A stretch of DNA of 64,000 bases, taken from assembly GCA_046329385.1 (NCBI GenBank), contig JAXLUT010000007.1:20640-84639 (forward strand), written 5' to 3'. Under the pieces are notes generated by a model that made no database searches, was not told where the DNA came from, and saw only the letters and a list, made by a program, of their open reading frames with translations. Source of the stretch: Saprospiraceae bacterium (GTDB lineage: Bacteria; Bacteroidota; Bacteroidia; Chitinophagales; Saprospiraceae). The position numbers and the translations under genes were made by a program. How positions within the stretch are numbered: position 1 is the stretch's first letter; each line of letters begins with the position of its first letter. Positions 8,358 to 26,375 of this stretch are shown here, piece by piece.

Positions 8358-9143
8358 CTACAATGATGTGGCCTCTTCCATGATGATATCGTATCTATAC
8401 CCGGCACCAAAATCTTTATTGAGTGCAATTTTACCTCTGAGCACTACTTTACTACCGATAGGTATGTTTTGATTGGTCGTAACTGTGAGGTCGATAGCCT
8501 TACCGTTTGATTGGCTACCATCATGAATGTGTACCCAATTGCGCCCCATGATGCCATTGTTGACTTTGACGCATTCTCCAGCAATAGTGATGATTTGGCC
8601 GTCGTATTTTGATTTTTTAGCCATCAGATCAGATAGTTTTACGGCATCTTTTACTTGTATAGGTGCAGACGAAACAGGCTTTTCTTGTGTAACTTCTGAT
8701 GGCATACTACCGCTAATATTTCCACCAGGATGCGCAGATGCGTCAATGATATTGCTGACAAGATAAATAGTATCAAATGTCCTTTTGAATTCAATACTCT
8801 CAAAATTTGTTTTCATCAGGCCACCTCTATAGAGATAAGTTTGACCTTTGACAGCATCTGTTTTTGAGGTAGCAATCCAGAATTTTTTGCCTGCTTCAGT
8901 TACGTTCAGATAGGTGTATCTGTCTGTTTGCAGGATTTCATTAGCTGTTACTTGGTGTACATCTGCTGCTCCAGCCATGCCACCTGGCTTATTTCCCATT
9001 GGGTTGGTACTATTTGGTGCTGTAACAGGTATAGCAGAGTTGTTAGTGGGTGATTCGTCAGCTACTATCACTTTTGGTTTTGATTCGCAACCAAATAAAA
9101 TATGTAAAGCAATGATGCTGAAAAGTACATTTTTTATAAACAT
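8358..9143 (-). CDS. lipoprotein of unknown function, last gene of the cytochrome operon
   Basis: Signal plus lipobox (ALHILFGC). 7-nt gap from the upstream barrel gene. No CxxCH. Confidence 0.6.
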   Translation of the reverse strand: MFIKNVLFSIIALHILFGCESKPKVIVADESPTNNSAIPVTAPNSTNPMGNKPGGMAGAADVHQVTANEILQTDRYTYLNVTEAGKKFWIATSKTDAVKGQTYLYRGGLMKTNFESIEFKRTFDTIYLVSNIIDASAHPGGNISGSMPSEVTQEKPVSSAPIQVKDAVKLSDLMAKKSKYDGQIITIAGECVKVNNGIMGRNWVHIHDGSQSNGKAIDLTVTTNQNIPIGSKVVLRGKIALNKDFGAGYRYDIIMEEATSL

Positions 9144-9150
9144 GTCAAAC

Positions 9151-10767
9151 TTAATTTTTAATTCTTTGTGTAACGGTTACAAAGTAACGATGCCAAGCTT
9201 TAGTTGGTTCAAATGTGCCTTCATAACTGCACATCAATGTCGTTTTTTTCAATACATTGATGGTGAAGTTGATGCCAGCTATTTTCTGTTTTAAAGCTGA
9301 TTCACTATTGAAGAAGTTATAGTTAATTTGTCGATAATTGATTTCGGTGCTCAATTTGCCCTTAAAAAATGAATCGTTGATTCTCCCACCTATAATATTT
9401 CCCGTAAAAGTATATGACTCCAACTGGTTGTAATTCAATGACAAATTGGTTGATTTCCTTGCTATGCTCGAAATACTTAAATTGACTATATGGTTTTTTG
9501 TTGGTTTTGGTATGCTGCCTTGGTATCGGTAGAACGATGATACATTTATATTGATCCGCCTGAATGGGCTATAATTGGCCTGTAATCTGAAACCTTGTCT
9601 TGTTTCTTGGGCCAATAATTGCTCGATAAATGTTTGGTAAGATTCGTAATAAATAATATTGCGCCTATTATCATAAGAGCCAGATACTGAGAGATTGCGC
9701 CTTAGTCTATATCTGAGCGATGCATAGACGCTTGTCAATCTTGGCTTATTGTCTGTTTCGCCATTTACTTTTTTGAAGAGATCAAACTCAGTAGAAAAGA
9801 AAATATTTAGATTTTTTACTATTGAATTATTATGCTGAAAATACAGAAACCGTCTATCTGTTTTGAAGTCATTTTGCTGCTCAACGATTGCCAAAGATGT
9901 TTGAGCTAATCCTTTGGTTGTTTTATCAGATCTTACCAAATACAATCCTACTTGAGGTAGCCCTGCATTGAATGTGAAATTGGTAAAATCTGGCCTTGTT
10001 CCTAAAATGCCACCAATGGTATATTTACCAATAATGTACTCACCTTGTAGTCCATCTATGGCGCCAATATTAGCAATGTTTTGGTTCATACGTCTTCCTA
10101 ATGAAATATTGAGTCTGTCAGATGGCGAATATGTCATAGCCAACGATAGCACCTTAAAATCATTATAGAAATTGTAATTCGTCTGATCAATACCATACCG
10201 GCGGCGATAGGTCAAATAAGTTTGAATTGAAAATGCTGATTCGTTGATGTTTTGTACATTTAGACTCACAGCAGCCCTAATTCTTTGAAAATTGTTTTGC
10301 TGGTCAGGATTGATACTGGCATTGGTTGATAAAGTGAGTCTTCCAGTTGTGATAGACTTTCTGGATTTTGTTATTGGGATGGAATCTTTGCCGAGGGTAT
10401 CCAATGTCACATTTGTTTTAATTTCTTCGATGGGAAGGGAGATAACTGGCTCCAGAGTCTTTAGAACTTTTTTTGTTACAATTTTTTTAACAGCTTGCCC
10501 AAGATTGATCGTAGTACTTGAGATATTTTGTGTCACACATGAAGTAGTGGATTTCTGTATGACTACCAATGCAGGTACCCAGTTGCTTTGTTCCAAGATA
10601 AGTAAGGTGTCGGTGACATAAATATCACTTGTATTTTCAAATCTGACATAGACATTGGTGCTACTTTTAAAGCTTACATTGCCAAGTATTTCACCTCGTT
10701 CTTGACCAAACAAAAAGCTCGGTGTCAAAATAAAAATTGCCCAAAATATCCTTAATAAATAATTCAT
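9151..10767 (-). CDS. predicted outer-membrane beta-barrel protein (candidate porin partner of the cytochromes)
   Basis: Signal peptide. Long run of alternating-polarity strands rich in Y/R/N/S after a ~110-aa N-terminal domain. 3-nt gap to the cytochrome gene. Confidence 0.6.
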   Translation of the reverse strand: MNYLLRIFWAIFILTPSFLFGQERGEILGNVSFKSSTNVYVRFENTSDIYVTDTLLILEQSNWVPALVVIQKSTTSCVTQNISSTTINLGQAVKKIVTKKVLKTLEPVISLPIEEIKTNVTLDTLGKDSIPITKSRKSITTGRLTLSTNASINPDQQNNFQRIRAAVSLNVQNINESAFSIQTYLTYRRRYGIDQTNYNFYNDFKVLSLAMTYSPSDRLNISLGRRMNQNIANIGAIDGLQGEYIIGKYTIGGILGTRPDFTNFTFNAGLPQVGLYLVRSDKTTKGLAQTSLAIVEQQNDFKTDRRFLYFQHNNSIVKNLNIFFSTEFDLFKKVNGETDNKPRLTSVYASLRYRLRRNLSVSGSYDNRRNIIYYESYQTFIEQLLAQETRQGFRLQANYSPFRRININVSSFYRYQGSIPKPTKNHIVNLSISSIARKSTNLSLNYNQLESYTFTGNIIGGRINDSFFKGKLSTEINYRQINYNFFNSESALKQKIAGINFTINVLKKTTLMCSYEGTFEPTKAWHRYFVTVTQRIKN

Positions 10768-10770
10768 AAA

Positions 10771-13700
10771 TCAATCTTCACCATCTGGATGACAAGCATA
10801 ACAAGCATTGCTATTGTATTGATATCCACCTACACCGTCATGTTTGTCAGCCATGTCAGCAGGATCGTCATGTTCGTGGCAATTTATACAACTAAATAGA
10901 TTGTAATTGCTTGCATTGAAGTGGCAGTCAGCACAAGTATTCCATTCTCCTTGGTGTTTTCCACTATATATTGGGAAATACATGCCATCATGGTTAAAAG
11001 TAGCTGGATTCCAAGCATTTTGAGAGTGACAAGAAGCACAGTCTGTCGGGAATTGTGCAGCTGTATGGTTGGGATTGGTAGTACCATTATAATCGCTTTG
11101 GTGACAACCTACACAAGTATTTGGAGTATTATTGTAATTGCCATTGTGACAAGTCACACATTCTAATGATGTATGGGCACCAACTATTGGATATATACTA
11201 TTGTGGTCTGGGAACAAAGCAGGACTCCATCCAGGTGCTGTAGTATGACAACTCACACAATCGGTAGATATACCTAGTGTGCTGTGATTTGGATTGGTTG
11301 CTCCGTTATAATCTGGTGTATGACAGCCAGCACAAGTGTTGGGTGTATTGGTATAATTGCCCATGTGACATTGGTTACAATCTGCTGCAATGCTACTATG
11401 CGCACCAGTTAATTGATAAAAATTGTTATGATTGAATGACGATGGTGTCCAACTGTTCTGACTATGACAACTTTCGCAATTGGTAGGGAATTGGTTGCTA
11501 CTGTGATTTGGATTAGTAGAGCTATTATAGTCACTCGTATGACATCCGAAGCAAGTGTTTGGAGTATTGTTGTAGTCTCCATTGTGACAAACTACACAAT
11601 TATTGGCAACACTGATATGCGCACCAGCTATCACATAAAAATCATTATGGTTTGGCATCGTAGCTGGTTGCCATCCAGGAGCAGTAGTATGGCAGCTCAT
11701 ACAGTCTGTGGATAGTCCTAAGGCTCCGTGATTCGGATTTTGGGCATTATTGTAGTGCGTCTGATGACAAGAAACACAAGTGGTAGATGTATTGGTATAG
11801 TTGCCGTTGATGTGGCAAAGTGTACAATTATTGGCTATTGCTTGATGTCCACCTGTCAATGGCCAAATAGTATTATGATCAAATGAAGATGGTGTCCAAG
11901 CGTCTTGACTATGACATGTAGTGCAGTTGGTTGGGAATTGATTGACCTCATGGTCTGGGTCATTGGTTGCGTTAAAATCTGATTGATGACAACCAATACA
12001 TGTATTTGGAGTCGTTGAGTAATTGCCATTAATGTGACATTCTGTACAGTTATTGGCGATAGCGGCATGAGCTCCAACCAAAGGATAAACAGTACTGTGG
12101 TCAAATGTTGATGGCGTCCAAGCATCTTGACTATGGCATGTAGCGCATTGATTAGGAAACTGTTGAGTAGTATGATTAGGATTGGTAGTGGCATTGTAGT
12201 CAGACTGGTGGCATCCTACACAAGTGTTGGGCGTATTGTTATAATCACCATTGTGACAAGCTGCACAATCACCAGCTATAGCAATATGTGCGCCGGCAAT
12301 GACATAAAAATCATTGTGATTGGCCATCGTGGCAGGAGACCAACCTGGATTGGTGGTGTGACAAGTGGCACAAGCTGTACTCAGCCCCAAAGTAGTGTGA
12401 TTAGGGTTGATACTTTGATTGTAATCTGTCTGGTGGCAACTGACACATTCTGATGAGGTATTATTGTAATTTCCATTATGACAAACCACACAATTGGTGG
12501 ATATAGCAGAGTGCGCGCCTGTCAAAGGCCAAAAAATACTATGATCAAAATTAGCTGGTGTCCAAGTGTTTTGATTATGGCACGTGGTACAATCAGTAGG
12601 AAACATACCTGCTTCGTGATCTGGATTGGATGTATTATTGAAATCCGATTGATGACAACCGACACATGTGTTTGGAGTATTGGTATAGTTGCATTATGAC
12701 AAGCTGCGCAATCTCCTGCTATGGCAGTGTGTGCGCCAGCTATGACATAGTAATCATTGTGATTGGGCATCATGGCTGGTGCCCATCCAGGTGTGGTAGT
12801 GTGGCATTGTACACAATTATTGGATATACCCAAGGCTATGTGATTTGGATTGACAGCTTGATTGAAGTCAACAGTATGACAATCTACACAGTTAGTAGAT
12901 GTGCCTTGATAACCATTGGCATGACATGATGTACAATCTGCACTGGTGTGTGCGCCCGTCAATGGGAAATTGGTGGTATTGTGATCAAAGATAAAATCTG
13001 CATCGCCTGTAGGATGACATGCCAAACAAGCAGGGCTATTGTAAACATAGCCGCCTACACCGTTATGTTCATTGTCAGTTTGTGGATTGGTATGACAAGT
13101 GATACAAGTAAATTGGCTGTAGTCGGCTGGATTGTTATGGCAATCTTGACATTGTGTCCATTCTCCTTGGTGCTCGCCAGAGTATATAGGGAAATATTGA
13201 TTATCATGGTTGAAAGTGGACGGTTGCCATGCATTTTCGCTATGACAAGAAGCACAGTCGGTTGGAAATTGTAAGGCTATGTGATTCGGGTCAGTGGTGG
13301 CAGTATAATCGCTATTGTGGCAACCTACGCATGTATTTGGCGTATTGTTGTAGTTACCATTATGACAGGCGGCACAATCATTTGCTATGGATGCGTGTGC
13401 GCCATTTAAGGTATAAAATTGATTGTGAATGGTGAATGAAGCTGGTGCCCAACCTGGATTGGTAGTGTGACAAGATGCACAATCCGTAGTCAAATTTAGT
13501 CCAACGTGATTGGGATTGCTTGCTTGATTAAAATCAGTGGTATGGCAACTTACGCAAGCTGAATTGGTATTGGCAAATCCATTGGAATGGCACTGCATAC
13601 AATCTACACCTTGGTGTGCTCCAGTCAATGCAAATCCTGTGGTATTATGGTCGAACACTAAATCGGCATCTCCTGTAGGATGGCAAGCCAAACATGCAGG

Positions 13701-16007
13701 GCTGAAATATGAATAACCACCTACACCATTATGTTGATCATTAGTTTCTGGGTTTTGATGACAAGTAATGCATGTAAACGCGGCCCAATTGCCTGGCGTA
13801 GAGTGGCATTCATTACAATCATTCCAAGTACCTTGATGCTTTCCGCTATATATTGGGAAATATTGCCCATCATGGTTGAATGTGGATGGCGTCCAAGCAT
13901 TTTCAGAGTGACATTGTGCACATTCTTGAGGGAATAGTAATTGTGCATGGTTAGGATTGGTAGTGGCATTATAATCATCGTTGTGGCAACCATTACAAGT
14001 ATTAGGCGTGACATTGTAATTGCCATTATGACAACTGGCACAATCATTGGCAATACTGGCGTGTGCACCATTTAGCGCATAATATGTATTATGATCCGCA
14101 AAGGTGGCAGGACTCCAGCCTGGATCAGTAGTATGACATGATTTACAATCGGTATTGATACCTAATGAAATGTGATTTGGATTGGCTGCACCATTAAATT
14201 CAGTCAAATGACAGCTGGCACAATTGGTAGAAGTACCAGCAAATCCTGTAGCATGGCAACTAATACAATCTGTAGCATTGTGGGCACCAGTCAGTGGAAA
14301 AGCAGTAGTGTTGTGATCAAAAACCACTAATGCATCACCAGTAGGATGGCAAGCCAAGCACGCATTATCTTGATAAATATAGCCGTTTACATCATCGTGT
14401 TCTTCAGAAGTCTCTGGGTCTTTGTGACACGATACACATGTAAACTTAGTAAAATCACCCGCAACTTTGTGACAATCTATACACTGGTCCCATTCGCCTC
14501 TGTGTTTACCGCTATATATTGGGAAATATTGCCCATCGTGGTTAAATGTTGATGGTTGCCAAGCATTTTCGGTATGGCAAGTGGTACAATCATGCGAAAA
14601 CTGATTTTGGACGTGATTTGGGTCATTCGCTGCATTGTAGTCGCTATTATGACATCCAATACAAGTATTGGGTGTATTGTTGTAGTCACCGTTATGACAA
14701 GCTACACAGTTATTGGCAATACTCGCATGAGCGCCATTGAGCATATAATAATCGTTGTGAACAGCAAAAGTTGCAGGACTCCAACCTGGAGCTGTAGTAT
14801 GACAAGATTTGCAATCGTTTGACAGATTAAGTTTTGTATGATTTGGATTTTGTGATCCAGCAAAATCTGATTGATGACAATCCACACAAGCTGTCGATGT
14901 ACCTTGAAAACCATTGGCATGACAAGATACACACTCTACTGTGGTGTGTGCCCCTGTCAATGGAAATTGTGTAGTATTATGGTCAAATGCCATATCTCCA
15001 TCACCTGAAGGGTGGCAAGCCAAACAAGCATTGTCATCATAATGGTAGCCGCTGACGCCATTATGTTCGTCATCTGTTTCCATTTTTTTATGACAAGCTA
15101 TACATGAAAATGTTTTGAAATCTCCTGGATTGGTATGGCATTCCACACAATCTGACCATACACCTTTGTGTTTGCCGCTGTATATTGGGAAATGTTTTGC
15201 ATCATGTTCTTGAAAAGTCACTGGTCTCCATCCTGGAGCCAAAGTATGGCATTGGGCACATTCTGTTGTAAATCCAGCAGCAGCGTGATTTGGTGAGGAT
15301 GTATTGTTGAAATGTGTTTGATGACAACTGATACATTCAGCAGAGATGATAGAAAAATCATCTGATAAATGACAAGCCTTACAATCATCTATCTTATGGC
15401 CTTGCTCCAAAGGGAAGAAGCTATGGTCGATGATTTCAGTATTCCATCCGGACCCATTCAATCCATGGCAAGCAGAACAGTCATTGCTAAAGTTGTTTTT
15501 GACGTGATCTGGTTTTTTGGTGCTGATATAGTCATTTCTATGGCAATCAATACAGTTGACGCCTGTAGGAGAAAATCTTACATTGCTTTCGCTTATATGG
15601 CAATCATTGCAATTGATATTGGCATGTACACCCATCAATGGGAATGAAACCTGCTCATGCAATAGGGTGATATTCTCAACTATCCATGATTGTGGTGTAT
15701 GACACCTTGCGCAGTCTTGCCCTACTGTGAGCTGGTGTACATCTTGATGGCAACCGACGCAAGTAGTGGAGACTTGTTTAAACTCCAATGTCTGATGACA
15801 TGATCTACAATCTAGATCTTTGTGCAGACCAACCAATGGAAAAGATGTACTGTCGTGACTGAAGTTAGATTTTTTTTGTTGGTAAGTCCAATTTTCGGGA
15901 TGATGACATTGTGCACAGTCTATGGCAAAGGATGCTCCATGGGGAGACTGAGACAAAACCCTTCCCCAAAGACATACAAAGAACATCAAACCAATATATT
16001 TGAGCAT
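10771..16007 (-). CDS. giant multiheme c-type cytochrome-like protein, ~1745 aa, ~70 CxxCH motifs, interrupted by a 1-nt frameshift near 12692
   Basis: Track ORFs 12522..16007 (44 CxxCH before the frame is lost) and 10771..12606. Adding one G at 12691/12692 restores ...CAACHNGNYTNTPNTCVGCHQSDFNNTSNPDHEAGMFPTDCTTCHNQN..., giving 26 CxxCH downstream of the break. Sec signal MLKYIGLMFFVCLWGRVLSQ. Confidence 0.8.
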
Positions 16008-16195: not shown

Positions 16196-18040
16196 TCACT
16201 GATGACAATCTTTGCAGTCCAATTTTTCATTTCTATATAGGATGGTAGATTTGCCATCTTTGACCTCAGATTGGTGGCACTGGTTGCAGTTGACTTTTTG
16301 GTGCGCTCCTTCGAGTTTGAAGCGCGTGTTGTCATGATTAAAATTGCTCCGATCCCACTTTTCAAAACCGTGACATCTAGCACAATCGGTCTGGCCATCT
16401 TGTTCAAATTGATTGCCATGTATGTTGTCGTGGCAGCTTTGACATTTTTGGTCCAATTGGATAAATTTTTGTGTTTTTGGCGTTGTGGTTTCGTCAAAAT
16501 GGCATGACCTGCAAGATATTGTCTCGTGTTTTCCCTTGAGTGAAAATGCGGTTTGGTTATGGTCAAAAGCTACATGAGTCCATGCATCATTGTTGTGACA
16601 AGCAGCGCAATCTTGGTTAGGTATAAATTTGGTTGAAATAAAACCATCATGTATATTATCATGACAATCAATACATAAAGATCCAATATTTCTAAAATTC
16701 CATTTATTATTATCAGGTTTATGGCAAGCAAAACAAGGTGTAGCAATATGAGCACCTTTGAGCGGAAAATTGGATTTTTCGTGTCGGTTGAAATCAAAAC
16801 TACTTTCCAAAAAACTAGTTTCGTCATGACAAGATTTACAATCATTTTCTACCAATTTTTCAAATTGCCCATCATGATAATCTTTATGGCATGATTTACA
16901 TTGGTCATGAGCCAAAGGAGCCGTCATATAGGTCGAAGTATGGCATTTGCGGCAATCGACTGATTGGTGCTTACCATACAATGTATAACCCGTCAAAGTA
17001 TGATCAAAATCTGATTTGATATTTTTAATGCCAAATGATTGCTGGTTATGACAAGATTTACAATCTTGGCCTAATTTTTTTTCATGGGCATCCTCATGAC
17101 AAGTAAGACAAGTTACATTTTGGGTGTTTTCAAATTCCTTGTATGTATCTTTTGTCCCAGATCTATTATCATGACATTTTTTACAATCAATAGTTTTGTG
17201 TTTGCCTTCCAACTCAAAACCTGTCAAACTATGGTTGAAGGCAGATGTGGACTTCATTTTTGAAAATGACTCGGTACTATGACAAGATTTGCAATCTGTA
17301 CCGAACTCACCATGATGAGGATCTTTGTGGCAAGAGCTGCAATTTTTATGAGGCACATTCGCAAAGTTTTGAAATTCTTTTCCATTTTTAATCTCTGTTT
17401 TATGGCATTGGATACACTGCACATTGGCGTGTGCCCCTGTCAATGGAAATTGGGTTTGGCTATGCTGAAATCCTGTAGCTGGTTTGAACTTGTCAAAATT
17501 ATGACACTTTGCACAATCATTGTCCAAGGTTTTTTGGTGATAGTCATCATGGCATGTGATACAAGTAGGAGATAAGCCAAGATAAGTACCTTTATTTTGT
17601 CTTATTTTTGGATCTGTAATATTATCGGCTGTATGGCACTTAGTACAATCATTGATCTTGTGGCTGCCTTTCAGATCATAACCTGTCAATGAGTGGTTGA
17701 AAGTCTTCTTGTCAAAGCGGATCATTTCAAAATTGACGCCATGGTGCTCGCTATGGCAAGTAATGCAGGCCTTGCCTTTGATCTCTCTGGATGAATGGTA
17801 ACCTTTGTTTTGACTTATTTTTTGTTTGAGTGGCTTGTGGCAATCCAAGCATTTTTGCTCTGATATCTTAGAGCCTAGATCATGACATGCCGTACAATTG
17901 CTGATACCTTCGAGTTGGGTATGCGCCTTGGTCAATTTGCCCGGTGACAATTGACTGAAGCCAACACAAATACATAGCGACCAGCATGTAATGATGGAGA
18001 CCAATTGCTTAATGGATAAACTATGTATAAATGATGCCAA
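16196..18040 (-). CDS. multiheme c-type cytochrome-like protein, 23 CxxCH motifs
   Basis: 614 aa with an N-terminal hydrophobic signal. 23 CxxCH by manual count, about one per 27 aa. Confidence 0.85.
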   Translation of the reverse strand: MASFIHSLSIKQLVSIITCWSLCICVGFSQLSPGKLTKAHTQLEGISNCTACHDLGSKISEQKCLDCHKPLKQKISQNKGYHSSREIKGKACITCHSEHHGVNFEMIRFDKKTFNHSLTGYDLKGSHKINDCTKCHTADNITDPKIRQNKGTYLGLSPTCITCHDDYHQKTLDNDCAKCHNFDKFKPATGFQHSQTQFPLTGAHANVQCIQCHKTEIKNGKEFQNFANVPHKNCSSCHKDPHHGEFGTDCKSCHSTESFSKMKSTSAFNHSLTGFELEGKHKTIDCKKCHDNRSGTKDTYKEFENTQNVTCLTCHEDAHEKKLGQDCKSCHNQQSFGIKNIKSDFDHTLTGYTLYGKHQSVDCRKCHTSTYMTAPLAHDQCKSCHKDYHDGQFEKLVENDCKSCHDETSFLESSFDFNRHEKSNFPLKGAHIATPCFACHKPDNNKWNFRNIGSLCIDCHDNIHDGFISTKFIPNQDCAACHNNDAWTHVAFDHNQTAFSLKGKHETISCRSCHFDETTTPKTQKFIQLDQKCQSCHDNIHGNQFEQDGQTDCARCHGFEKWDRSNFNHDNTRFKLEGAHQKVNCNQCHQSEVKDGKSTILYRNEKLDCKDCHQ

Positions 18041-18045
18041 ATTTC

Positions 18046-19368
18046 TTACTTTTTATGAGATAACATGGTGTAATTGAATCGTTTAGATATTTCAATGCCA
18101 GCTTTTTGTAGAAATTGTGTTGGTAACTCTCCACCAGCAAAAATAAAGACCAAATCATTTTTAAGATGCATCTCAGTGCCATCTTTCAATGCAATAGTGA
18201 CATCATCTTGATTGATCTCTTTGACATTGGATTCAAAAAGCATATTAATTTTATTTTCATTAATGGCTTTTTCTATATTTTGAGCATTAAGCGGTTTTAA
18301 CCTATTGAATGCTTCGCTGCGATATGATAGTGCTACTTTGTTGTCTTTGGCCAATAGCAATGCACTTTCGATGGCTGAATCTCCGCCACCTACCACAAGG
18401 ACATTTTGACCAATAATATGTTCTGGCTCCATGAGTTTGTAAGCTACTTTTTCCAAATGCTCGCCTTTTACATCCAGTTTTCTTGGTGTGCCTCTGCGAC
18501 CTATTGCCAAAAGTACTTTTTCGCCTTGGTAGCTTTCACCTTTTTGTGTAGTCACCACGAATTGACCATCTTGCTTGCTGATAAGTTCTACTTTTGAGTT
18601 TTCGACAATATTGATTTTATTCTTATCTAATACTTCGTGCCAAAGGTCGAGCAATTCGGTTTTACTGGTTTGATATAGCTTCACTTTGCCATGTCCAGGC
18701 AGGTCCATAGGCGATGTCATGACGATCTTGGCTCTAGGAAAATTATATACAGTACCTCCAAGAGTATCTTGCTCCAATGTCAATGTTTTGATGCCCATGT
18801 TTTTGGCTTGGAGAGATGCTGCAATACCAGCAGGACCAGCACCGATGATGATGAGATCATAAGTGGCTTTATGATTTTTGTCCAAAGACTGTGAGATATA
18901 TTGGACTGCTTGTTTGCCTTGTTCTACACTATTTTTAATGAGGCCCATTCCACCCAATTCGCCAGCTATAAAAATGCCTTTGACATTGGTCTCAAAATTT
19001 TGGTTGACATGAGGCAGATCGACGCCACGTTTTTCAGTACCAATCTTTAGAGAAATTGCTTCTACTGGGCAAGCGTGAAAACAAGCACCATGACCTACAC
19101 ATCGGGATGCATTGATGAGCGTGGCTCTTCCATTTCTGATACCTATGATTTCTTTTTCTGGACAAGCTATGACGCATGCTCCACTTTTGATGCAATTATC
19201 TTCGTCAATGTATGGATACAAAGATACGGGTTCGAAGGCTCCAACTTCTTTGGCTACTTGGATTTTTTCGTCCACATCTTTGGATTCTTTTTTGAGTTTA
19301 CGCACATAGATCCACACGATAATGAGACAAATCAAGCTGACAACGCTATATATAATGAGCTCTTCCAT
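18046..19368 (-). CDS. membrane-anchored FeS (2 ferredoxin-like motifs) + FAD/NAD(P)-binding oxidoreductase (thioredoxin-reductase-like fold)
   Basis: N-terminal TM helix followed by RKLKKESK. Motifs CIKSGACVIACP and CVGHGACFHACP. Dinucleotide motifs IIGAGPAG and VVGGGDSA. Confidence 0.85.
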   Translation of the reverse strand: MEELIIYSVVSLICLIIVWIYVRKLKKESKDVDEKIQVAKEVGAFEPVSLYPYIDEDNCIKSGACVIACPEKEIIGIRNGRATLINASRCVGHGACFHACPVEAISLKIGTEKRGVDLPHVNQNFETNVKGIFIAGELGGMGLIKNSVEQGKQAVQYISQSLDKNHKATYDLIIIGAGPAGIAASLQAKNMGIKTLTLEQDTLGGTVYNFPRAKIVMTSPMDLPGHGKVKLYQTSKTELLDLWHEVLDKNKINIVENSKVELISKQDGQFVVTTQKGESYQGEKVLLAIGRRGTPRKLDVKGEHLEKVAYKLMEPEHIIGQNVLVVGGGDSAIESALLLAKDNKVALSYRSEAFNRLKPLNAQNIEKAINENKINMLFESNVKEINQDDVTIALKDGTEMHLKNDLVFIFAGGELPTQFLQKAGIEISKRFNYTMLSHKK

Positions 19369-19374
19369 CAGTGC

Positions 19375-20229
19375 TTAAAATATCCAAGTATAACCAAAAG
19401 TCAATGTCACTGCTACGTGAATGATCATGATGATGAGCATGATCAGAGCAAAAGGCAAGTGAGCAATGTGCCAATACCTAAATAATTTTTGCATAGTGAG
19501 CAGTCTTTGTATTTTCCGATTGAGATTCAGCTCATTGGAGATATTGAGCATGATAGATTTCATCTCTGATGATGGAATATTTTGTGTATTCAATCTACTT
19601 CGAATGATTCGCAATTGTTTCTTTTCATCAAGATATTGTGAAATGTATCCACTAAAACCCTTATAGTCTTGAGTGGATTTTGTAGATTCGATCAATCCAT
19701 GTATATCCACATTGGAGTATTGTTGTTGATCGACACTTGCATCTTTTGCTGACATTGCTTGCAATTCAACTAAGCTGAGTTCTCGGCCTTGGATGGTGCG
19801 TGGTATTTGAAGATAAATGAATCGACCTATCACGCCACTCGCCACTACTGCGACCATACTCCAAAAACTGATGGAAACGATGCCACCGAATTTGAAAGCT
19901 GTATGAAATAAGATCATGATGGGGCCCAAAGTACACAGAAAAATGTGAAATTCGAGCCAGTATTTCAACACACCAATCCTACTAAGCGAACGGAATCTTT
20001 TTCTTGCCATATAACCAAACACGCCTATCAAGATAAGCAAAGTGCCGATGATGCCTAATCCATGGCCATACATACCACTAGGTTTTAGGTTTTGATGGTC
20101 TTGATGATAAAAACGCTCCTCAAGTGAAGTAACATAATAATCTGAACCATGTAGTGCTAAATAAATAGTAACACCAACTACTATGGAAGCCAAGGTGGCA
20201 AGATAGATCTTATGGCCTGTCTCGGTCAT
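19375..20229 (-). CDS. polytopic membrane protein with two H-x13-H pairs (candidate di-heme b transmembrane electron carrier)
   Basis: Likely start MTETGHKIY at 20229, preceded by a TAnnTTTG box. About five TM helices. EFHIFLCTLGPIMILFH and HLPFALIMLIIMIIH lie within hydrophobic segments. Confidence 0.6.
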   Translation of the reverse strand: MTETGHKIYLATLASIVVGVTIYLALHGSDYYVTSLEERFYHQDHQNLKPSGMYGHGLGIIGTLLILIGVFGYMARKRFRSLSRIGVLKYWLEFHIFLCTLGPIMILFHTAFKFGGIVSISFWSMVAVVASGVIGRFIYLQIPRTIQGRELSLVELQAMSAKDASVDQQQYSNVDIHGLIESTKSTQDYKGFSGYISQYLDEKKQLRIIRSRLNTQNIPSSEMKSIMLNISNELNLNRKIQRLLTMQKLFRYWHIAHLPFALIMLIIMIIHVAVTLTFGYTWIF

Positions 20230-20251
20230 GGATGATGAGGTTATTCTTTTG

Positions 20252-20259
20252 CAAAGGTA
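20252..20259 (-). promoter_or_regulatory. -7 box TACCTTTG for the cytochrome operon
   Basis: TAnnTTTG on the minus strand, 22 nt upstream of the ATG at 20229. Confidence 0.3.
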
Positions 20260-20854
20260 TGAAAATTTGAATGTCTTTTTGAAATATTTTTTATTTAGAT
20301 GTGGTGCTTTACCAAACAATTTACAAATATTGTAGTAAATTTTGTATGCGTCCAAACATAAATGATTTAGCTTAATCCTGAGTTGCAAGGTAAATTGAGA
20401 TTTATTTATTGAGTATGAGTGATTTAAGGAGTGATAAATTACGAAGTACTAAATTTTTTCAATACCCAAGTTTTTAGATGTATTAAGAGCATTATTAGCT
20501 TTAGAATGGCATCACAAGTCCCAATTTGTATTATTGATATTCTTTACCTAACTTAATATAGACAGTATTCAGCATTTCGTGATTAAATTTATATGTTTTG
20601 AAGACTTAGATTTGTGGTTGAAACTATATAATGGTAAGTTTGTACGCTCAAATTTTTTTAAAAAGTCAAATTAGATCAATAAGTCAGTGGCAATATTGCG
20701 CTGACTTTTTTATATAATACAGTTTATAAATTAACTGATACGATGTTGACAGTGGATTTGATGTATTCATATTATATATTATTATATGTTAATGAAAGAT
20801 TGACCTAATTTAAAATTTTTCATATTATTTACATTATATGTTAAAAAACATCGT

Positions 20855-20862
20855 TACTTTTG
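20855..20862 (+). promoter_or_regulatory. -7 box TACTTTTG in the long intergenic region
   Basis: TAnnTTTG about 290 nt upstream of the LytTR regulator ATG. Preceded by the 12-bp direct repeat ATTATATGTTAA at 20781 and 20833. Confidence 0.25.
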
Positions 20863-21151
20863 CAGTTTATTAATCATGATAAAATAATAGTCTATAAAAA
20901 ATTTTTAATGCAAAATTAAATCCTTAATTTATGTGTTTTTGGTTTGATTATTCTGATGTTGAAGTTTTTACTTGATTTGTACTGATTTTGCATAATTATG
21001 TTATATTTATGACATATTATGCCATTGTAATGTAAATTGGAGTATAATATTTGAAATTGATTTAAGTTTGCATCCTCAAACAGCACCAATTTTTGATGTC
21101 TGTAATTGGTTTACTTATTTAAAAATTTTGAATTTTTTATAAAAAAGTGCA

Positions 21152-21868
21152 ATGGAATTGAATAATGTCGAAATATTATTAGTTGATGACGAAGCAATAC
21201 ATACTGAGATACTCAAGAAAAAACTACAAAATTTAGGATACATAAATGTAAGCGTTGTCAATTCATTTTTAAAGGCTGTCGATTACCTCAATGAAGTTAA
21301 CCCAGATTTAATCATCTTGGATTATTATTTGGACAAGAACCATACAGGAGTGGATTTAGTCAAAGAGTCTTTATTGAATAAAGAAATACCAATTATATTT
21401 ATTAGTTCTTTCTATGGTAACGACTTGTTTAAAGAAGTCATTGGATGTGCCCCCATTGATTTTGTACCTAAAAACGTTTCCGAGTTTGATTTAGATAAGA
21501 CCATTAGATTATCTTTGATCAAAAGGAAGGAAGCAAATATAAATAAGAAATTGAAGGATTTTATTTTTGTAAAATATAAGAGGGAGATAAGGAAATTAGC
21601 TGTTATCGATATTGAATATATGGTTGTAGATGGTAAATATTTGGTTTTGCATGCAGATCAAAAAAAATATCTGATTAGATCTACCCTCAATGACTTTTTA
21701 AAAAAATTACCTGAAAACTTTATTAAAGTACATCAAGCTTATATTATCAATCTTAGGTTTTTAGAATCAATCCAGTTGGATGAAGGCATTTTGAAAATCG
21801 GGACTGTTGATATCCCATTTAGTAGGAATTATAAAAAGGACTTGCTCAATGCATACTATATGCCATGA
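21152..21868 (+). CDS. LytTR-family response regulator
   Basis: REC domain (ILLVDDE, IILDYYL) plus C-terminal LytTR DNA-binding domain (FIKVHQAYIINL). TGA stop. Confidence 0.9.
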   Translation: MELNNVEILLVDDEAIHTEILKKKLQNLGYINVSVVNSFLKAVDYLNEVNPDLIILDYYLDKNHTGVDLVKESLLNKEIPIIFISSFYGNDLFKEVIGCAPIDFVPKNVSEFDLDKTIRLSLIKRKEANINKKLKDFIFVKYKREIRKLAVIDIEYMVVDGKYLVLHADQKKYLIRSTLNDFLKKLPENFIKVHQAYIINLRFLESIQLDEGILKIGTVDIPFSRNYKKDLLNAYYMP

Positions 21869-22387: not shown

Positions 22388-25300
22388 CTAATTTTGTTTT
22401 GATTTGAGGTCATTCACAACATTTTGTAAGCTTAAAATTATTTTATCAATAGCTTTTATAGATGTATCCGAAAATGGAATGGACGCATCAAGTTCTACTA
22501 AAAGATGACATCATCATAAATATTGTAATTCCCATCTGAAGGCAATAATTTTAGCTTTTAATTTATGGGCAATTTTTTTGACTGTATCTACATCATTATT
22601 TTTTTTGGCGCGCTCCAATTCTGGAATATTTTCGTCACAAAGAGCTATGAAAAGCTCAATGATTTTATTGACAAAGACTTCGTCTCCTCTACTTATTTTT
22701 TTAATTTGACTCAGATCGTATAGCTTATGCATACTGTTCATATCATCTATGTTGTTCCTATTCGTATAATTACTAATATTGATCTGAATTTTTCTGAAAA
22801 ATTCTTGCTCGTCATAGGTTTGATGATGTGAAGTCATTCATACCTATGCTTTAGGTATAATTTTATGTCATGCTTGAATGCATTGGCAGTTAAGGCAATG
22901 ATAGGTATGTCCAACTTGAGTTGTTCTCTGATATATATTTCGTTGCCTCAACACCATCCATTGTAGGCATTTGAATATCCATCAAGATGATGTCAAAATT
23001 ATTTTTTTGAACTTCTTCGACTGCGATTTTTCCATTTTCTGCCTCTCTTGTTTCAAACCCAAGATAGTTCAAACTCTGTATAGCAATAAATCTATTCATT
23101 TCATTGTCTTCGACCAACAAAGCTCTCATCCCTTGAAAACATTTGCTTTAATTTCTGCACTTTTGGGATGTAATTGTGTAGCTTTTGATTTTGTAAACAT
23201 AAGCTCAAAAATGCAAGTTGTCCCTTCATTTTTCTTGCTTTTTATTAACATTTTGCCACCCATCAGTTTGATCAAATCATGAGAAATGGCCATACCTAAT
23301 CCGGTACCTTCAAATTTCTTTTATTGATGTGTTTTTTTGTTTCTTGAGAAAATCTTATCGTACCTGTGATAAATTCCTTTGACATACCGATACCAGTATC
23401 TGAAACTTCAAATCTCAAGGTTTACTAAATTTACCTTGCATCAAGGTAGCCGATAACTCGATATGGCCAAATTGAGTAACTTCATAGAATTTCCAATAAG
23501 ACGATATTTACTTGACGCAAATGTATATCATCACCTATTAATACGAATGGATGTTTGCATCAATATGGATATTAAATTCAAGATTTTTTCGATAGCTGAG
23601 AAGATGATGGAGTAAATATTATTGAGTAGAGTACTTGGACTAAAATTATTTTTCAAAATCTCCATATCTCCAGATTCAATTTTTGCAATATCTAAGACAT
23701 TATTGAGGATGGTCAAAAGATGCCTTGCCGAGCTTTCTGACTGTTTGACATAAAACTGTTGGGGCTCAGTTAGTGCTTCTTTATTGAGCTGCCTTATCAT
23801 GCCTATGATGACATTCAATGGTGTCCTTATCTCATGGCTCATATTGGCCAAAAACAATTCTTTCGCTTTTGCTACTGCTTCGGCAAAGCTCTTAGCTTCA
23901 GCCAGTTCTATTTCTAATCTTTTTTGTGCTGTGATGTCCAAGTGAATGCCAATGCTGCCTATCAATTGGCCTTTGTCGTTATAGTTGGGTGCGCCACTTA
24001 CAAACCACCATCTTTTTTCTCCAGTCTTATTAATTACTTCCAATTCATAACTATCTGACATACCATCGATTCTTATTTGTGTTTTGTCATAGACAATTTT
24101 TTTGTGATGGTCTTGGACAAAAAGTTCAGCTGCTTTGCTATCTTTTAATTCAAAAAGACTGAAGCCTGACATCTCACAAAAACTTTGGTTGGCAAAAATA
24201 ATCACATCATTCAAATCTACTTCTAAAAGGCCCAAATTCATATTAGCAATAATATTTCTGTATTTTTCTTCTTGTCTAATGAGTTGATTCTCCCATTTTT
24301 GTCTATTTCGGATGTTAATCAACATCTGTCCAAATAACATTAAAAGACTTTTTTCTTTATTAGTATATATTTTGTGGTCTTTTACTGAATCGAAACCAAC
24401 GAAGCCAACAAGTTCTTTACCATCTATCATCGGGATAGCTATCAAACTTTTGATACCTTGTGCTTCCAATGCTTCTTGTACTCCATCTTCTTTCTCTACT
24501 TCACTTAATTTCGAAACATCTTCAATATGAAAAGATTCTCCTAATAGGTGTTGCTTTACCCAATATTCTGGTATTGGAACATTTTGCAAATTGTCGATTT
24601 CAGCTGATATTCCATCACCACACCACTCATAGGTATTTGAAGTTGTGTTGGCTTCAAAATCATAATCAAAAATATAAGCTCTGTCTGCACCAACAAACAT
24701 ACCCATTTTCTCAAGTGATTCGGCTATGGTCTTTTCTAATTCTTGGATGTCAAGATTGATATATGTGGTAGCTACATCGATCAATGCAGCTTGAAGCTTG
24801 ATCTCATTGTCAAGTTTCTCTTGTGCAAAATATTGTCGAGTTCGATCCACCAAAACACCATCAATCCTTATAGGTTTATTATCTTCATTATAAATATATT
24901 TTCCTTTATTTTTTAACCATTTTAGTCGCCCTGATGCAGTATTAATCTTAAAGCGAACATTGAATTCTCCCTTTTGATCCAATTTTTGAAATATTTCTCT
25001 TACTACATTCTTATCTGACTCAATAATGGGCGCAATCCAAGCTAGTTTATCTTGCAATACTTGCTCTACACTTAGTTCATAGACTGTGTTGACTGATGGT
25101 GTTATAAAAATAAATTGTTTTTCGGGCAACTTTATAGAATAAACCACGTCTGTCATCTCATTGAGGATACTTTCAAGCATTTGAGTAGTAGAGATCAATT
25201 TTTTTTCTTGAGCTTTTCTTTCACTTATATCTTTGATAAATGCACAAAAAAACTGTTTGTCTTTTTGAAAAAAATTCATCATGTAGATTTCTACTGGAAA

Positions 25301-26323: not shown

Positions 26324-26375
26324 TGTGTGCACTGCCTCCCTATAAACTGGACTTTTTTCAAATGGCGTAAATTTG

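What the first reader, a model, noticed from the sequence alone, without database searches (positions are those of the whole stretch)
19375..20229. Small membrane protein with two H-x13-H pairs: possible di-heme b transmembrane carrier
Predicted TM segments contain EFH-IFLCTLGPIMILF-H and H-LPFALIMLIIMII-H, each with exactly 13 residues between the histidines. Two TM helices each contributing a His pair with about 13-residue spacing is how ferric-reductase-domain proteins (NOX/FRE, MsrQ-type) ligate two stacked b hemes across a membrane. Together with the adjacent flavoprotein this resembles a split, NOX-like NAD(P)H-to-outside electron path. Alternatively it could be a quinol-interacting cytochrome b. 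A ~100-aa hydrophilic insert separates helix 4 from the last helix.
Basis: inference. Interest (0 to 1): 0.7.

Follow-up and report, generated by a model that had tools for sequence, protein, structure and literature searches.

The report
Predicted two-haem membrane electron carrier
This small membrane protein very probably holds two stacked b-type haems and passes electrons from a neighbouring NAD(P)H-using iron-sulfur flavoprotein across the inner membrane to giant multi-haem cytochromes; the same kind of protein was predicted from sequence in 2017, but nobody has tested it.

Summary
Window 19375-20229 (-) encodes a 284-aa protein with five transmembrane (TM) helices, H95-x13-H109 on TM3, H257-x13-H271 on TM5, and a roughly 110-aa cytoplasmic helical insert between TM4 and TM5. 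Across 101 relatives at 27-58% identity, these four His are 93-100% conserved, while the other His are not.

The family is large (3297 clusters at 50% identity; at least 569 species) and is annotated only as "hypothetical". No Pfam or NCBIfam model reaches threshold. Members do give consistent sub-threshold hits to DUF4405, Ferric_reduct and Ni_hydr_CYTB.

Context:
- In 78 of 79 Bacteroidota loci the next gene is a TM-anchored ferredoxin-domain FAD/NAD(P)H flavoprotein.
- This is followed by a 23-haem cytochrome, a roughly 69-haem cytochrome, a putative porin and a GW protein.
- Distant proteobacterial relatives sit beside an unrelated FNR-type 2Fe-2S reductase and a 7-haem cytochrome.

It is not new in kind. 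He et al. 2017 (PMC5566968) described the PCC3/PCC4 inner-membrane protein with exactly these motifs: five TM helices, SGxxG on TM4, and W-x3-H-x13-H on TM3 and TM5. They proposed two b haems. The recurrent NAD(P)H-reductase partner, which suggests a quinone-independent route, may not have been pointed out before.

Haem binding, electron direction and the final acceptor are untested.

The parts
19375..20229 (-). 284-aa five-TM inner-membrane protein; candidate di-haem b transmembrane electron carrier (PCC3-type 'IMP')
   Evidence: ORF and start codon. Family conservation of the four His. Weak hits to the di-haem b Pfam families. AF2 model pLDDT 93.6, pTM 0.84. Motifs match He et al. 2017.
19900..19962 (-). 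TM3 (residues ~90-110) carrying W91-x3-H95-x13-H109. H95 codon is 19945-19947; H109 codon is 19903-19905.
   Evidence: Read directly from the sequence. H95 99% and H109 100% conserved; W91 91%.
19810..19884 (-). TM4 (residues ~116-140) with the S131-G132-x-x-G135 motif and conserved R136
   Evidence: S131 97%, G132 98%, G135 99%, R136 93% conserved. SGxxG on TM4 is a defining motif of the PCC3/PCC4 IMPs.
19486..19809 (-). Cytoplasmic helical insert of ~110 aa (residues ~141-248) between TM4 and TM5. Its sequence is variable but it is always present. It may be the docking surface for the reductase (inference).
   Evidence: Hydropathy and charge. AF2 helices 153-170, 176-181, 193-214 and 220-277, the last continuous with TM5. 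Low conservation. Also present in the short proteobacterial relatives.
19402..19482 (-). TM5 (residues ~250-276) carrying W253-x3-H257-x13-H271. H257 codon is 19459-19461; H271 codon is 19417-19419.
   Evidence: Read directly from the sequence. W253 96%, H257 93%, H271 94% conserved. DUF4405 positions 41-63 and Ni_hydr_CYTB positions 128-167 align here.
18046..19368 (-). 440-aa flavoprotein: N-terminal TM anchor, ferredoxin-type domain with two variant cluster motifs (Ser and His in place of the second Cys), and a TrxR/YpdA-like FAD + NAD(P)H domain. Proposed cytoplasmic electron donor.
   Evidence: Pyr_redox_3 1.7e-50, Fer4 families about 1e-10, YpdA family 1e-53 but below its cut-off. GAGPAG and GGGDSA motifs and no CxxC. 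Starts 6 nt after the IMP stop. Adjacent in 78/79 loci. Motif variants conserved in 83 orthologues.
16196..18040 (-). 614-aa multihaem cytochrome c with 23 CxxCH motifs and a signal-peptide-like N-terminus. Proposed periplasmic wire.
   Evidence: Cytochrome_C7 4.6e-29, Cytochrom_c3_2 7.5e-20. 23 CxxCH. Follows the flavoprotein in all but 3 of the 79 loci, where little DNA lay downstream. PCC3 periplasmic cytochromes have 21-27 haems.
10771..16007 (-). Giant multihaem cytochrome c read as two overlapping ORFs: 12522-16007 (44 CxxCH) and 10771-12606 (25 CxxCH, no signal peptide). Most likely one ~1740-aa, ~69-haem extracellular cytochrome interrupted by a 1-nt frameshift near 12690.
   Evidence: Pfam cytochrome c7/c3 hits. 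CxxCH counts. The repeat unit continues in another reading frame.
9151..10767 (-). 538-aa secreted protein with no family match. Putative outer-membrane beta-barrel (porin) of the conduit.
   Evidence: Signal-peptide-like N-terminus and strand-like alternating sequence. No Pfam, NCBIfam or PDB match. Homologues are conserved in the cluster, including in distant lineages at 21-25% identity. The beta-barrel fold was not tested.
8358..9143 (-). 261-aa GW/SH3-like domain protein, the conserved last gene of the cluster. Role unknown.
   Evidence: GW domain 1.6e-06. Co-occurs downstream of the putative porin in many loci. Annotated 'GW dipeptide domain-containing protein' in Emticicia.

Best explanation
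The gene encodes the inner-membrane electron gate of a PCC3-like porin-cytochrome conduit. It is a five-helix protein that ligates two b haems between TM3 and TM5. One haem sits near the cytoplasmic face (H95 + H257) and one near the periplasmic face (H109 + H271).

Proposed path in this Bacteroidota version:
1. NAD(P)H is oxidised in the cytoplasm by the TM-anchored flavoprotein encoded 6 nt downstream.
2. Electrons pass FAD, then two Fe-S clusters, then the inner haem b, then the outer haem b.
3. They continue to the 23-haem periplasmic cytochrome, then through the putative outer-membrane barrel to the ~69-haem extracellular cytochrome, and finally to an external acceptor (Fe(III)/Mn(IV) minerals, humics, or possibly O2).

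This flow is electrogenic and non-conserving, as in NOX, and bypasses the quinone pool.

Shown by computation: gene structure, topology, His conservation, remote similarity to di-haem b families, and gene linkage. Inferred: haem binding, which His pairs with which, direct docking of the flavoprotein (perhaps on the polybasic 76-89 loop and the cytoplasmic insert), outward direction, and the acceptor.
For: - **Conservation.** The four His are 93-100% conserved at 27-58% identity, while the other His vary.
- **Geometry along the helix.** Fourteen residues is about 21 A, a spacing that suits two haems stacked across the membrane (established knowledge of cytochrome b and NOX).
- **Topology.** Positive-inside analysis places one His of each pair at each face.
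- **Remote similarity.** 69, 43 and 30 of 86 members weakly hit DUF4405, Ferric_reduct and Ni_hydr_CYTB. The consensus minus the insert aligns to Ferric_reduct positions 1-110. Two acidobacterial members carry precomputed PF14358 or PF01292 hits. A DUF4405 protein was shown to bind haem b (PMC11334425).
- **Linkage in Bacteroidota.** The flavoprotein is adjacent in 78/79 loci and the 614-aa cytochrome follows in nearly all.
- **Linkage in distant lineages.** In metagenomic lineages at 49-65% GC, orthologues of the flavoprotein, the putative porin and the cytochromes stay within a few kb although gene order is shuffled.
- **A second, unrelated reductase.** On Methylophaga, Legionella and Acetobacter plasmids, a short homologue sits between an FNR-type FAD/NAD/2Fe-2S reductase and a 7-haem cytochrome.
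- **Orientation of the flavoprotein.** Its TM anchor is followed by RKLKK, which puts its catalytic domains in the cytoplasm.
- **Literature.** Motifs and cluster content match the PCC3/PCC4 IMP description.
Against: - No haem, flavin or activity data exist for any member. PCC3 was still called 'functionally unverified' in 2025.
- No Pfam or NCBIfam model reaches its threshold for the window protein.
- Profile searches against PDB sequences find nothing.
- Foldseek of a pLDDT-93.6 model finds no PDB neighbour with E below 1; cytochrome b561 appears only at E about 3-4.
- I could not read the model coordinates, so whether the His pairs face each other is untested.
- One acidobacterial locus (L083) has the cytochromes and the putative porin but no reductase on the 9-kb contig.
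- He et al. favoured a quinone-active role, and PCC3 is mostly discussed for Fe(II) oxidation, which is inward flow.
Confidence: 0.62

Rival explanations
1. It is a quinone-active di-haem cytochrome b, as He et al. 2017 proposed. The protein exchanges electrons between the menaquinone pool and the periplasmic multihaem cytochrome, like CymA, CbcL or the NarI-type subunits. The flavoprotein would feed or drain the quinone pool, or serve another role, and would not dock on the cytochrome b.
For: He et al. compared the IMP to the cytochrome b of the bc1 complex and of [NiFe]-hydrogenase, both of which are quinone-active. Weak hits to Ni_hydr_CYTB occur in 30/86 members. One acidobacterial locus shows no adjacent reductase. 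All well-studied inner-membrane extracellular electron transfer (EET) gates in Gram-negatives are quinol-dependent (established knowledge).
Against: A transmembrane two-haem wire with protein partners encoded at both ends does not need a quinone site. The reductase gene is tightly packed against the IMP gene (6-nt gap) and adjacent in 78/79 loci. An unrelated NAD(P)H reductase occupies the same position in Proteobacteria. No quinone-site motif was identified, although none was specifically sought.
Confidence: 0.2
2. It is the same di-haem wire run inward. Electrons from extracellular Fe(II), reduced humics or a cathode enter through the cytochromes and are delivered to the flavoprotein to reduce NAD(P)+, giving a dedicated reverse route for reducing power.
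For: PCC3 clusters were found in Fe(II) oxidisers and are discussed as candidate iron oxidases. The PCC3 IMP gene was upregulated with iron-oxidation activity in Sideroxydans CL21. Mtr-type conduits are reversible.
Against: Moving electrons inward against the membrane potential and uphill to about -320 mV needs energy input. No coupling device (proton-translocating subunit or bifurcating module) is encoded in the cluster. The hosts here are Saprospiraceae and Cytophagales, which as far as I know are heterotrophs.
Confidence: 0.1
3. It is not a cytochrome. The conserved intramembrane His bind a metal ion or act in transport or sensing, for example metal handling linked to cytochrome or copper homeostasis.
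For: The proteobacterial plasmid copies lie among copper and metal resistance genes: a multicopper oxidase, CopB and DUF411. No haem evidence exists.
Against: Two His pairs spaced x13 on two parallel helices at two membrane depths is the classical bis-His di-haem pattern. Similarity points only to haem b families. The invariable partners are redox proteins.
Confidence: 0.05

Closest known systems
Inner-membrane protein (IMP) of the PCC3 / PCC4 porin-cytochrome gene clusters and of related MHC-IMP-redox-protein clusters (He, Barco, Emerson, Roden 2017, Front Microbiol 8:1584; PMC5566968)
   Same: About 300 aa, five TM helices, SGxxG on TM4, W-x3-H-x13-H on TM3 and TM5, annotated hypothetical, and predicted to hold two b haems. 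Encoded with a 21-27-haem periplasmic cytochrome, a very large extracellular cytochrome and a porin. The window has all the motifs and the same cluster content.
   Different: PCC3 was described in Proteobacteria as a four-gene set without a reductase and was modelled as quinone-linked, mainly for Fe(II) oxidation. Here the hosts are Bacteroidota, a TM-anchored Fe-S flavoprotein is an almost obligate neighbour, and the extracellular cytochrome has about 69 haems. Direct sequence homology to the Sideroxydans or Leptothrix IMPs was not tested. Homology to the short proteobacterial IMPs of the Suppl. Table 6 type was found (tblastn E 1e-8 to 6e-5).
Ferric-reductase domain (FRD, PF01794) proteins: NOX/FRE, STEAP, MsrQ/YedZ
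   Same: N-terminus inside. Bis-His pairs on TM3 (x13) and TM5 (x12-13), both running in to out. A polybasic TM2-TM3 cytoplasmic loop. NAD(P)H as the ultimate donor in NOX/FRE. Weak collinear match to the Pfam model.
   Different: Five helices rather than six. A ~110-aa insert in the TM4-TM5 loop. Scores are below the gathering cut-off. There is no Foldseek match to NOX, STEAP or MsrQ structures. The reductase is a separate TrxR-type flavoprotein with Fe-S clusters, not a fused FNR-type dehydrogenase domain. The acceptor is a cytochrome c chain.
DUF4405 (PF14358), PepSY_TM (FoxB) and FezC cytochromes (Huang et al. 2024, mSystems; PMC11334425)
   Same: This is the most frequent weak Pfam hit (69/86 members, best 5.7e-06). 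It aligns on the His-x13-His helices. DUF4405 and FezC were shown to bind haem b and have four central His.
   Different: Those proteins are six-TM (DUF4405) and are associated with flavinylation (ApbE) or ferrosomes, not with multihaem cytochromes and NAD(P)H reductases. The window protein scores only 10.8 bits against a 26.7-bit cut-off.
Tmc/Hmc-type transmembrane redox complexes of sulfate reducers (established knowledge, from memory)
   Same: The same three-layer logic: a periplasmic multihaem cytochrome c, a membrane cytochrome b and a cytoplasmic Fe-S protein.
   Different: Their cytochrome b is NarI/HdrE-like and their cytoplasmic partner is HdrD-like, not an NAD(P)H flavoprotein. No sequence relation was detected. 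Flow there is usually inward.

Membership tests
PCC3/PCC4-type inner-membrane protein (He et al. 2017) | About 300 aa with five predicted TM helices | tested here: met
   284 aa. Hydropathy and AF2 give helices at 8-26, 57-75, 90-110, 116-140 and 250-277.
PCC3/PCC4-type inner-membrane protein (He et al. 2017) | W-x3-H-x13-H on both TM3 and TM5 | tested here: met
   W91-LEF-H95-x13-H109 and W253-HIA-H257-x13-H271. Conservation is 91-100%.
PCC3/PCC4-type inner-membrane protein (He et al. 2017) | SGxxG on TM4 | tested here: met
   S131-G132-V-I-G135, 97-99% conserved.
PCC3/PCC4-type inner-membrane protein (He et al. 2017) | Encoded with a periplasmic multihaem cytochrome (21-27 haems), a large extracellular multihaem cytochrome and a porin | tested here: inconclusive
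   Cytochromes with 23 and about 69 CxxCH are present. The 538-aa secreted protein is conserved in the cluster, but its beta-barrel fold was not tested and it has no family match.
PCC3/PCC4-type inner-membrane protein (He et al. 2017) | Sequence homology to the reference IMPs of Sideroxydans ES-1 or Leptothrix SP-6 | not tested
   The reference sequences were not obtainable with these tools. Only homology to the short proteobacterial plasmid IMPs was shown.
Ferric reductase domain, PF01794 | Score at or above Pfam's gathering cut-off (28 bits) | tested here: not met
   The window protein gives no hit. The best family member scores 22.2 bits, and 43/86 members give sub-threshold hits. The consensus scores 15.9-16.7 bits.
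Ferric reductase domain, PF01794 | Two bis-His pairs on TM3 and TM5 spaced 13 and 12-13 residues | tested here: met
   x13 on both helices.
Ferric reductase domain, PF01794 | Six-TM fold superposable on NOX, STEAP or MsrQ structures | tested here: not met
   Five TM helices. Foldseek of the pLDDT-93.6 model against the PDB finds no hit with E below 1. Foldseek is weak on small helical bundles with large inserts, so this does not exclude a shared core.
NADPH oxidase (NOX) proper | Fused C-terminal FNR-type dehydrogenase domain (FAD_binding_8 / NAD_binding_6) | tested here: not met
   The protein ends 8 residues after TM5. The neighbouring reductase is Pyr_redox_3 + Fer4. Distant relatives pair with a separate FAD_binding_6/NAD_binding_1/Fer2 protein.
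DUF4405, PF14358 | Score at or above the gathering cut-off (26.7 bits) | tested here: not met
   10.8 bits for the window protein. 69/86 members give weak hits, best E 5.7e-06. One acidobacterial relative (P0504) has a precomputed PF14358 hit.
Prokaryotic cytochrome b561, PF01292 | Score at or above the gathering cut-off (30.1 bits) | tested here: not met
   No hit for the window protein. 30/86 members give weak hits, best 1.1e-04. P0511 has a precomputed PF01292 hit.
Any b-type cytochrome | Binds haem b (two per monomer) | not testable with these tools
   Needs expression, a pyridine-haemochrome assay and redox spectra.

The most novel reading that the evidence does not exclude
The IMP plus its reductase may be a widespread, quinone-independent 'split NOX'. 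In this reading, a cytoplasmic NAD(P)H flavo-Fe-S reductase injects electrons directly into a two-haem membrane wire that feeds a trans-envelope multihaem conduit. Two unrelated reductase folds have been recruited for this in different phyla. Aerobic heterotrophic Bacteroidota (Saprospiraceae, Cytophagales), Acidobacteriota and others would then have a dedicated route for exporting reducing power to minerals, humics or O2 without passing through the respiratory chain.
Probability: 0.4. Interest if true: 0.7.

Novelty: new member of a known kind. Interest (0 to 1): 0.5.

Why it matters
How electrons cross the inner membrane in the large, uncharacterised porin-cytochrome systems (PCC3-like) is an open question. 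Saprospiraceae carry some of the largest multihaem cytochromes known (PMC11495043).

All established Gram-negative inner-membrane gates draw on the quinol pool. A direct route from NAD(P)H through a flavoprotein and di-haem b to cytochrome c would be a different, NOX-like solution. It would change how reducing-equivalent budgets and extracellular redox chemistry are modelled for abundant wastewater, freshwater and soil bacteria.

The family is large and has no Pfam or NCBIfam model, so thousands of genes are currently labelled hypothetical.

The question is directly testable. Complete clusters exist in cultured strains: on a 100-kb plasmid of Emticicia oligotrophica DSM 17448, in Emticicia aquatica CECT 8858, and at least the first three genes in Lacihabitans sp. 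CCS-44, whose contig ends there.

Tried and rejected
- **Sequence searches against PDB chains.** I used the single protein and two profiles. Only coiled-coil noise from the insert came back.
- **Foldseek against the PDB.** I ran two models, at pLDDT 71 and 93.6. No significant neighbour was found, so I could not place the fold or check His geometry. Model coordinates are not exposed by the tools.
- **hhalign against MsrQ and NOX2.** The His helices aligned but the probability was below 1%, which is uninformative. The MsrQ database search returned only relatives at 78% identity or more and was a poor use of a capped search.
- **Cluster look-ups for distant representatives.** They gave no organism names.
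- **Literature.** Searches for a Bacteroidota-specific description found only general notes on giant Saprospiraceae cytochromes. The 2026 peat preprint on acidobacterial porin-cytochrome clusters does not mention an inner-membrane cytochrome b.
- **Longer ORF.** I rejected the TTG-initiated ORF running to 20388, because relatives start at the ATG.
- **H254 as a ligand.** I rejected it, because the proteobacterial relatives lack it while keeping W-x3-H.
Full report
**1. Observation**

The finding lies on the minus strand. The ORF lister gives a 337-aa TTG-initiated ORF (19375-20388). The ATG at 20229 is the real start, because every close relative begins at that Met. The product is 284 aa.

Both quoted strings are there, each with exactly 13 residues between the His: EFH95-IFLCTLGPIMILF-H109 and H257-LPFALIMLIIMII-H271.

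Hydropathy and the AlphaFold2 secondary structure agree on five transmembrane (TM) helices at about 8-26, 57-75, 90-110, 116-140 and 250-277. A hydrophilic helical stretch of about 110 residues lies between TM4 and TM5, and its last helix (220-277) runs straight into TM5.

The 76-89 loop (RKRFRSLSRIGVLK) has six K/R and no acidic residue. By the positive-inside rule, the N-terminus, this loop and the insert are cytoplasmic. H95 and H257 then lie near the inner face, and H109 and H271 near the outer face.

**2. Is it more than chance?**

The protein has more than 7500 relatives in the 90%-clustered collection, all unnamed or "hypothetical" and without Pfam domains. A profile search of 1.84 billion representatives found 3297 clusters at E <= 1e-3 and 387 at E <= 1e-30.

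In 101 full-length representatives at 27-58% identity, conservation is:

| Residue | Conserved |
|---|---|
| H95 | 99% |
| H109 | 100% |
| H257 | 93% |
| H271 | 94% |
| H254 | 86% |
| H6, H42, H45, H56 | 31-68% |

These figures are; the 86-sequence alignment A2 agrees.

W91, W253 and S131-G132-x-x-G135 are also more than 90% conserved.

**3. Relation to known families**

Pfam and NCBIfam give nothing for the window protein beyond a DUF4405 hit at E = 0.72 on TM5.

I then scanned 86 family members one by one:
- 69 hit DUF4405 (best 5.7e-06).
- 43 hit Ferric_reduct, PF01794 (best 1.5e-04).
- 30 hit prokaryotic cytochrome b561, PF01292 (best 1.1e-04).
- No other family recurred in more than 7 members.

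The matches fall on the TM2-TM3 region and on TM5. The family consensus with the insert removed aligns collinearly to positions 1-110 of the 121-position Ferric_reduct model (E = 0.014). Two acidobacterial members carry precomputed PF14358 or PF01292 hits. A DUF4405 protein and FezC were shown experimentally to bind haem b (PMC11334425).

All of this is below the curated thresholds. It is consistent in pointing only to bis-His di-haem b families.

On the structural side, a deeper alignment raised the AF2 model from pLDDT 71 to 93.6 (pTM 0.84). Foldseek against the PDB still found nothing with E below 1, and profile searches of PDB sequences were empty. I could not read the coordinates, so the facing of the His pairs remains untested.

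The topology equals that of the first five helices of FRD proteins, as I recall them for NOX: N-terminus inside, polybasic TM2-TM3 loop, and His pairs on TM3 and TM5, both running in to out. The protein has five helices rather than six, and a much enlarged TM4-TM5 loop.

**4. Context**

The gene heads a tightly packed minus-strand operon:

| Coordinates | Product |
|---|---|
| 19375-20229 | inner-membrane protein (IMP) |
| 18046-19368 (6 nt after the IMP stop) | 440-aa flavoprotein |
| 16196-18040 (5 nt further on) | 614-aa cytochrome c, 23 CxxCH |
| 10771-16007 | two overlapping ORFs, 44 + 25 CxxCH, almost certainly one frameshifted ~69-haem cytochrome |
| 9151-10767 | 538-aa secreted protein with no family match |
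| 8358-9143 | GW-domain protein |

These assignments rest.

The flavoprotein has an N-terminal TM helix followed by RKLKK, so its domains are cytoplasmic. It then has a ferredoxin-type domain and a TrxR/YpdA-like module with GAGPAG (FAD) and GGGDSA (NAD(P)H) motifs and no redox-active CxxC.

In 79 genome loci with enough downstream DNA, the flavoprotein gene directly follows the IMP gene in 78. The 614-aa cytochrome follows in nearly all, and the putative porin and GW protein follow in many. The hosts are Saprospiraceae, Lewinellaceae, Aureispira, Cytophagales, and MAGs labelled Chlorobiota and Bacteroidales. The scan reported at least 569 species.

Cultured carriers:
- Emticicia aquatica CECT 8858 and Lacihabitans sp. 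CCS-44, where RefSeq calls the protein hypothetical.
- Emticicia oligotrophica DSM 17448, where the whole set, preceded by ccsA, lies on plasmid pEMTOL02.

In distant metagenomic lineages (49-65% GC), the order is shuffled. Orthologues of the flavoprotein (39-45% identity, same TM anchor), the 520-554-aa secreted protein and the multihaem cytochromes stay within a few kb. One acidobacterial contig shows cytochromes and the secreted protein but no reductase within its 9 kb.

Short homologues (242-253 aa; tblastn E 1e-8 to 6e-5) occur on Methylophaga, Legionella and Acetobacter plasmids. They keep H-x13-H on TM3, SGxxG on TM4, W-x3-H-x13-H on TM5 and an insert. Each lies between an unrelated reductase and a 7-haem cytochrome c. 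The Methylophaga reductase scans as FAD_binding_6 + NAD_binding_1 + 2Fe-2S, with a weak Ferric-reductase NAD_binding_6 hit; the Legionella and Acetobacter reductases are annotated only as 2Fe-2S cluster-binding proteins and were not scanned.

Two unrelated NAD(P)H-type reductases in the same genomic position is the strongest argument that the IMP takes electrons from the cytoplasm rather than from quinol.

**5. Mechanism proposed**

NAD(P)H passes electrons to FAD, then to two Fe-S clusters, then to the inner haem b (H95/H257), then to the outer haem b (H109/H271). From there they go to the 23-haem periplasmic cytochrome, through the outer-membrane barrel to the ~69-haem extracellular cytochrome, and on to an external acceptor.

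Fourteen residues on a helix span about 21 A and rotate by about -40 degrees. Both His of a pair therefore lie on roughly one face, at a spacing that suits two stacked haems (established knowledge of cytochrome b and NOX).

Outward flow is downhill and aided by the membrane potential. It would dispose of reducing power rather than conserve energy, as NOX does.

Steps shown by computation: gene structure, topology, conservation, remote similarity and linkage. Steps inferred: haem binding, His pairing, direct docking, direction and acceptor.

Rivals:
- a quinone-active cytochrome b (0.2);
- inward flow for NAD(P)+ reduction (0.1);
- a non-haem metal site (0.05).

**6. What is already known**

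He et al. 2017 (PMC5566968) described "PCC3" and "PCC4" porin-cytochrome clusters with a conserved inner-membrane protein. It is about 300 aa, has five TM helices, SGxxG on TM4 and two W-x3-H-x13-H motifs on TM3 and TM5. They compared it to the FRD and to cytochrome b, and proposed that it carries two b haems and may be quinone-active.

Their Supplementary Table 6 lists porin-less clusters containing a multihaem cytochrome, an HX13H inner-membrane protein and "another redox protein". The plasmid modules I found are of that type.

PCC3 periplasmic cytochromes have 21-27 haems, and the window's has 23. PCC3 was still "functionally unverified" in 2025.

The window protein meets every motif-level criterion of that description. 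Direct homology to the Sideroxydans or Leptothrix proteins was not tested.

I found no earlier statement of:
- the Bacteroidota clade;
- the near-obligate Fe-S flavoprotein partner with its variant cluster motifs;
- the recurrence of a second, unrelated NAD(P)H reductase.

Together these shift the likely donor from quinol to NAD(P)H.

**7. Verdict**

This is a new member of a known but experimentally untested kind.

Interest is moderate (0.5). It is not surprising in kind. It does offer a concrete, testable answer, in cultured strains, to how PCC3-like conduits are wired to the cytoplasm. It also shows that a large family lacks any database model.

Noticed in passing
window 18046-19368 (-), residues 59-70 and 90-101: Both ferredoxin-type motifs of the flavoprotein lack the second Cys: C-IKS-GA-C-VIA-CP has Ser there, and C-VGH-GA-C-FHA-CP has His. 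In 83 orthologues, motif 2 has His in 83/83. Motif 1 has S 70, T 8, G 4 and C 1. This implies either [3Fe-4S] clusters or His/Ser-ligated [4Fe-4S] clusters. A His-ligated cluster could be the exit point toward the haem b, as in the distal cluster of [NiFe]-hydrogenases (from memory).
   Followed up: partly
window 10771-16007 (-), junction near 12690: ORFs 12522-16007 (1161 aa, 44 CxxCH) and 10771-12606 (611 aa, 25 CxxCH, no signal peptide) overlap by 85 nt. The cytochrome repeat unit continues in another reading frame after '...CAACHN'. This is most likely one cytochrome of about 1740 aa and 69 haems, broken by a 1-nt frameshift that is either a sequencing error or a real disruption.
   Followed up: partly
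window 22514-26332 (-): A PAS/GAF/HisKA sensor kinase ORF (23531-26332) ends just after its HisKA domain. It is followed by a short receiver-domain ORF (22890-23129); for the next ORF (22514-22837) I assumed a phosphotransfer-type domain from its position, and did not scan it. Together they look like one hybrid kinase split by frameshifts. An rve-family transposase lies next to it at 26376-27449. With the cytochrome frameshift above, this suggests either indel errors in the assembly or local gene decay.
   Followed up: no
window 20230-21151; motif at 20252-20259 (-): A 920-bp, 28% GC non-coding stretch separates the operon from a divergently transcribed LytTR-type response regulator (21152-21868). 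TACCTTTG lies 22 nt upstream of the ATG and fits the Bacteroidetes -7 promoter consensus TAnnTTTG (from memory). No -33 TTTG was evident.
   Followed up: no
L090 (Emticicia oligotrophica plasmid pEMTOL02, NC_018749.1 78197-90781); L060 6850-9954: In Emticicia the cluster is preceded by a ~1030-aa ccsA cytochrome c biogenesis gene. This is annotated in E. oligotrophica; in E. aquatica it is only inferred from an ORF of matching size and position. In E. oligotrophica the whole system sits on a 100-kb plasmid beside a ParA gene, so the module may be mobile. The window has no ccsA at that position.
   Followed up: partly
L091 2974-6751, L092 2950-6412, L093 3537-6259: The proteobacterial plasmid modules (FNR-type 2Fe-2S reductase, short IMP, 7-haem cytochrome c) lie among copper and metal resistance genes: a multicopper oxidase, CopB, DUF411 and isoprenylcysteine carboxyl methyltransferase-like genes. 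The Methylophaga and Legionella reductases have an N-terminal secreted His-rich segment (HQAHHPD / HAAHHPG) before a TM helix. This hints at a periplasmic metal-reduction role.
   Followed up: no
L001/L002 14219-20858: In one Saprospiraceae-like genome (P0040), only the three-gene core (IMP, flavoprotein, 615-aa cytochrome) is present. It is followed by a Crp/FNR-type regulator and, a few kb on, nosL-nosD and the ABC-transporter genes of a nitrous-oxide reductase accessory set. The core may therefore also serve periplasmic reductases, not only an outer-membrane conduit.
   Followed up: no
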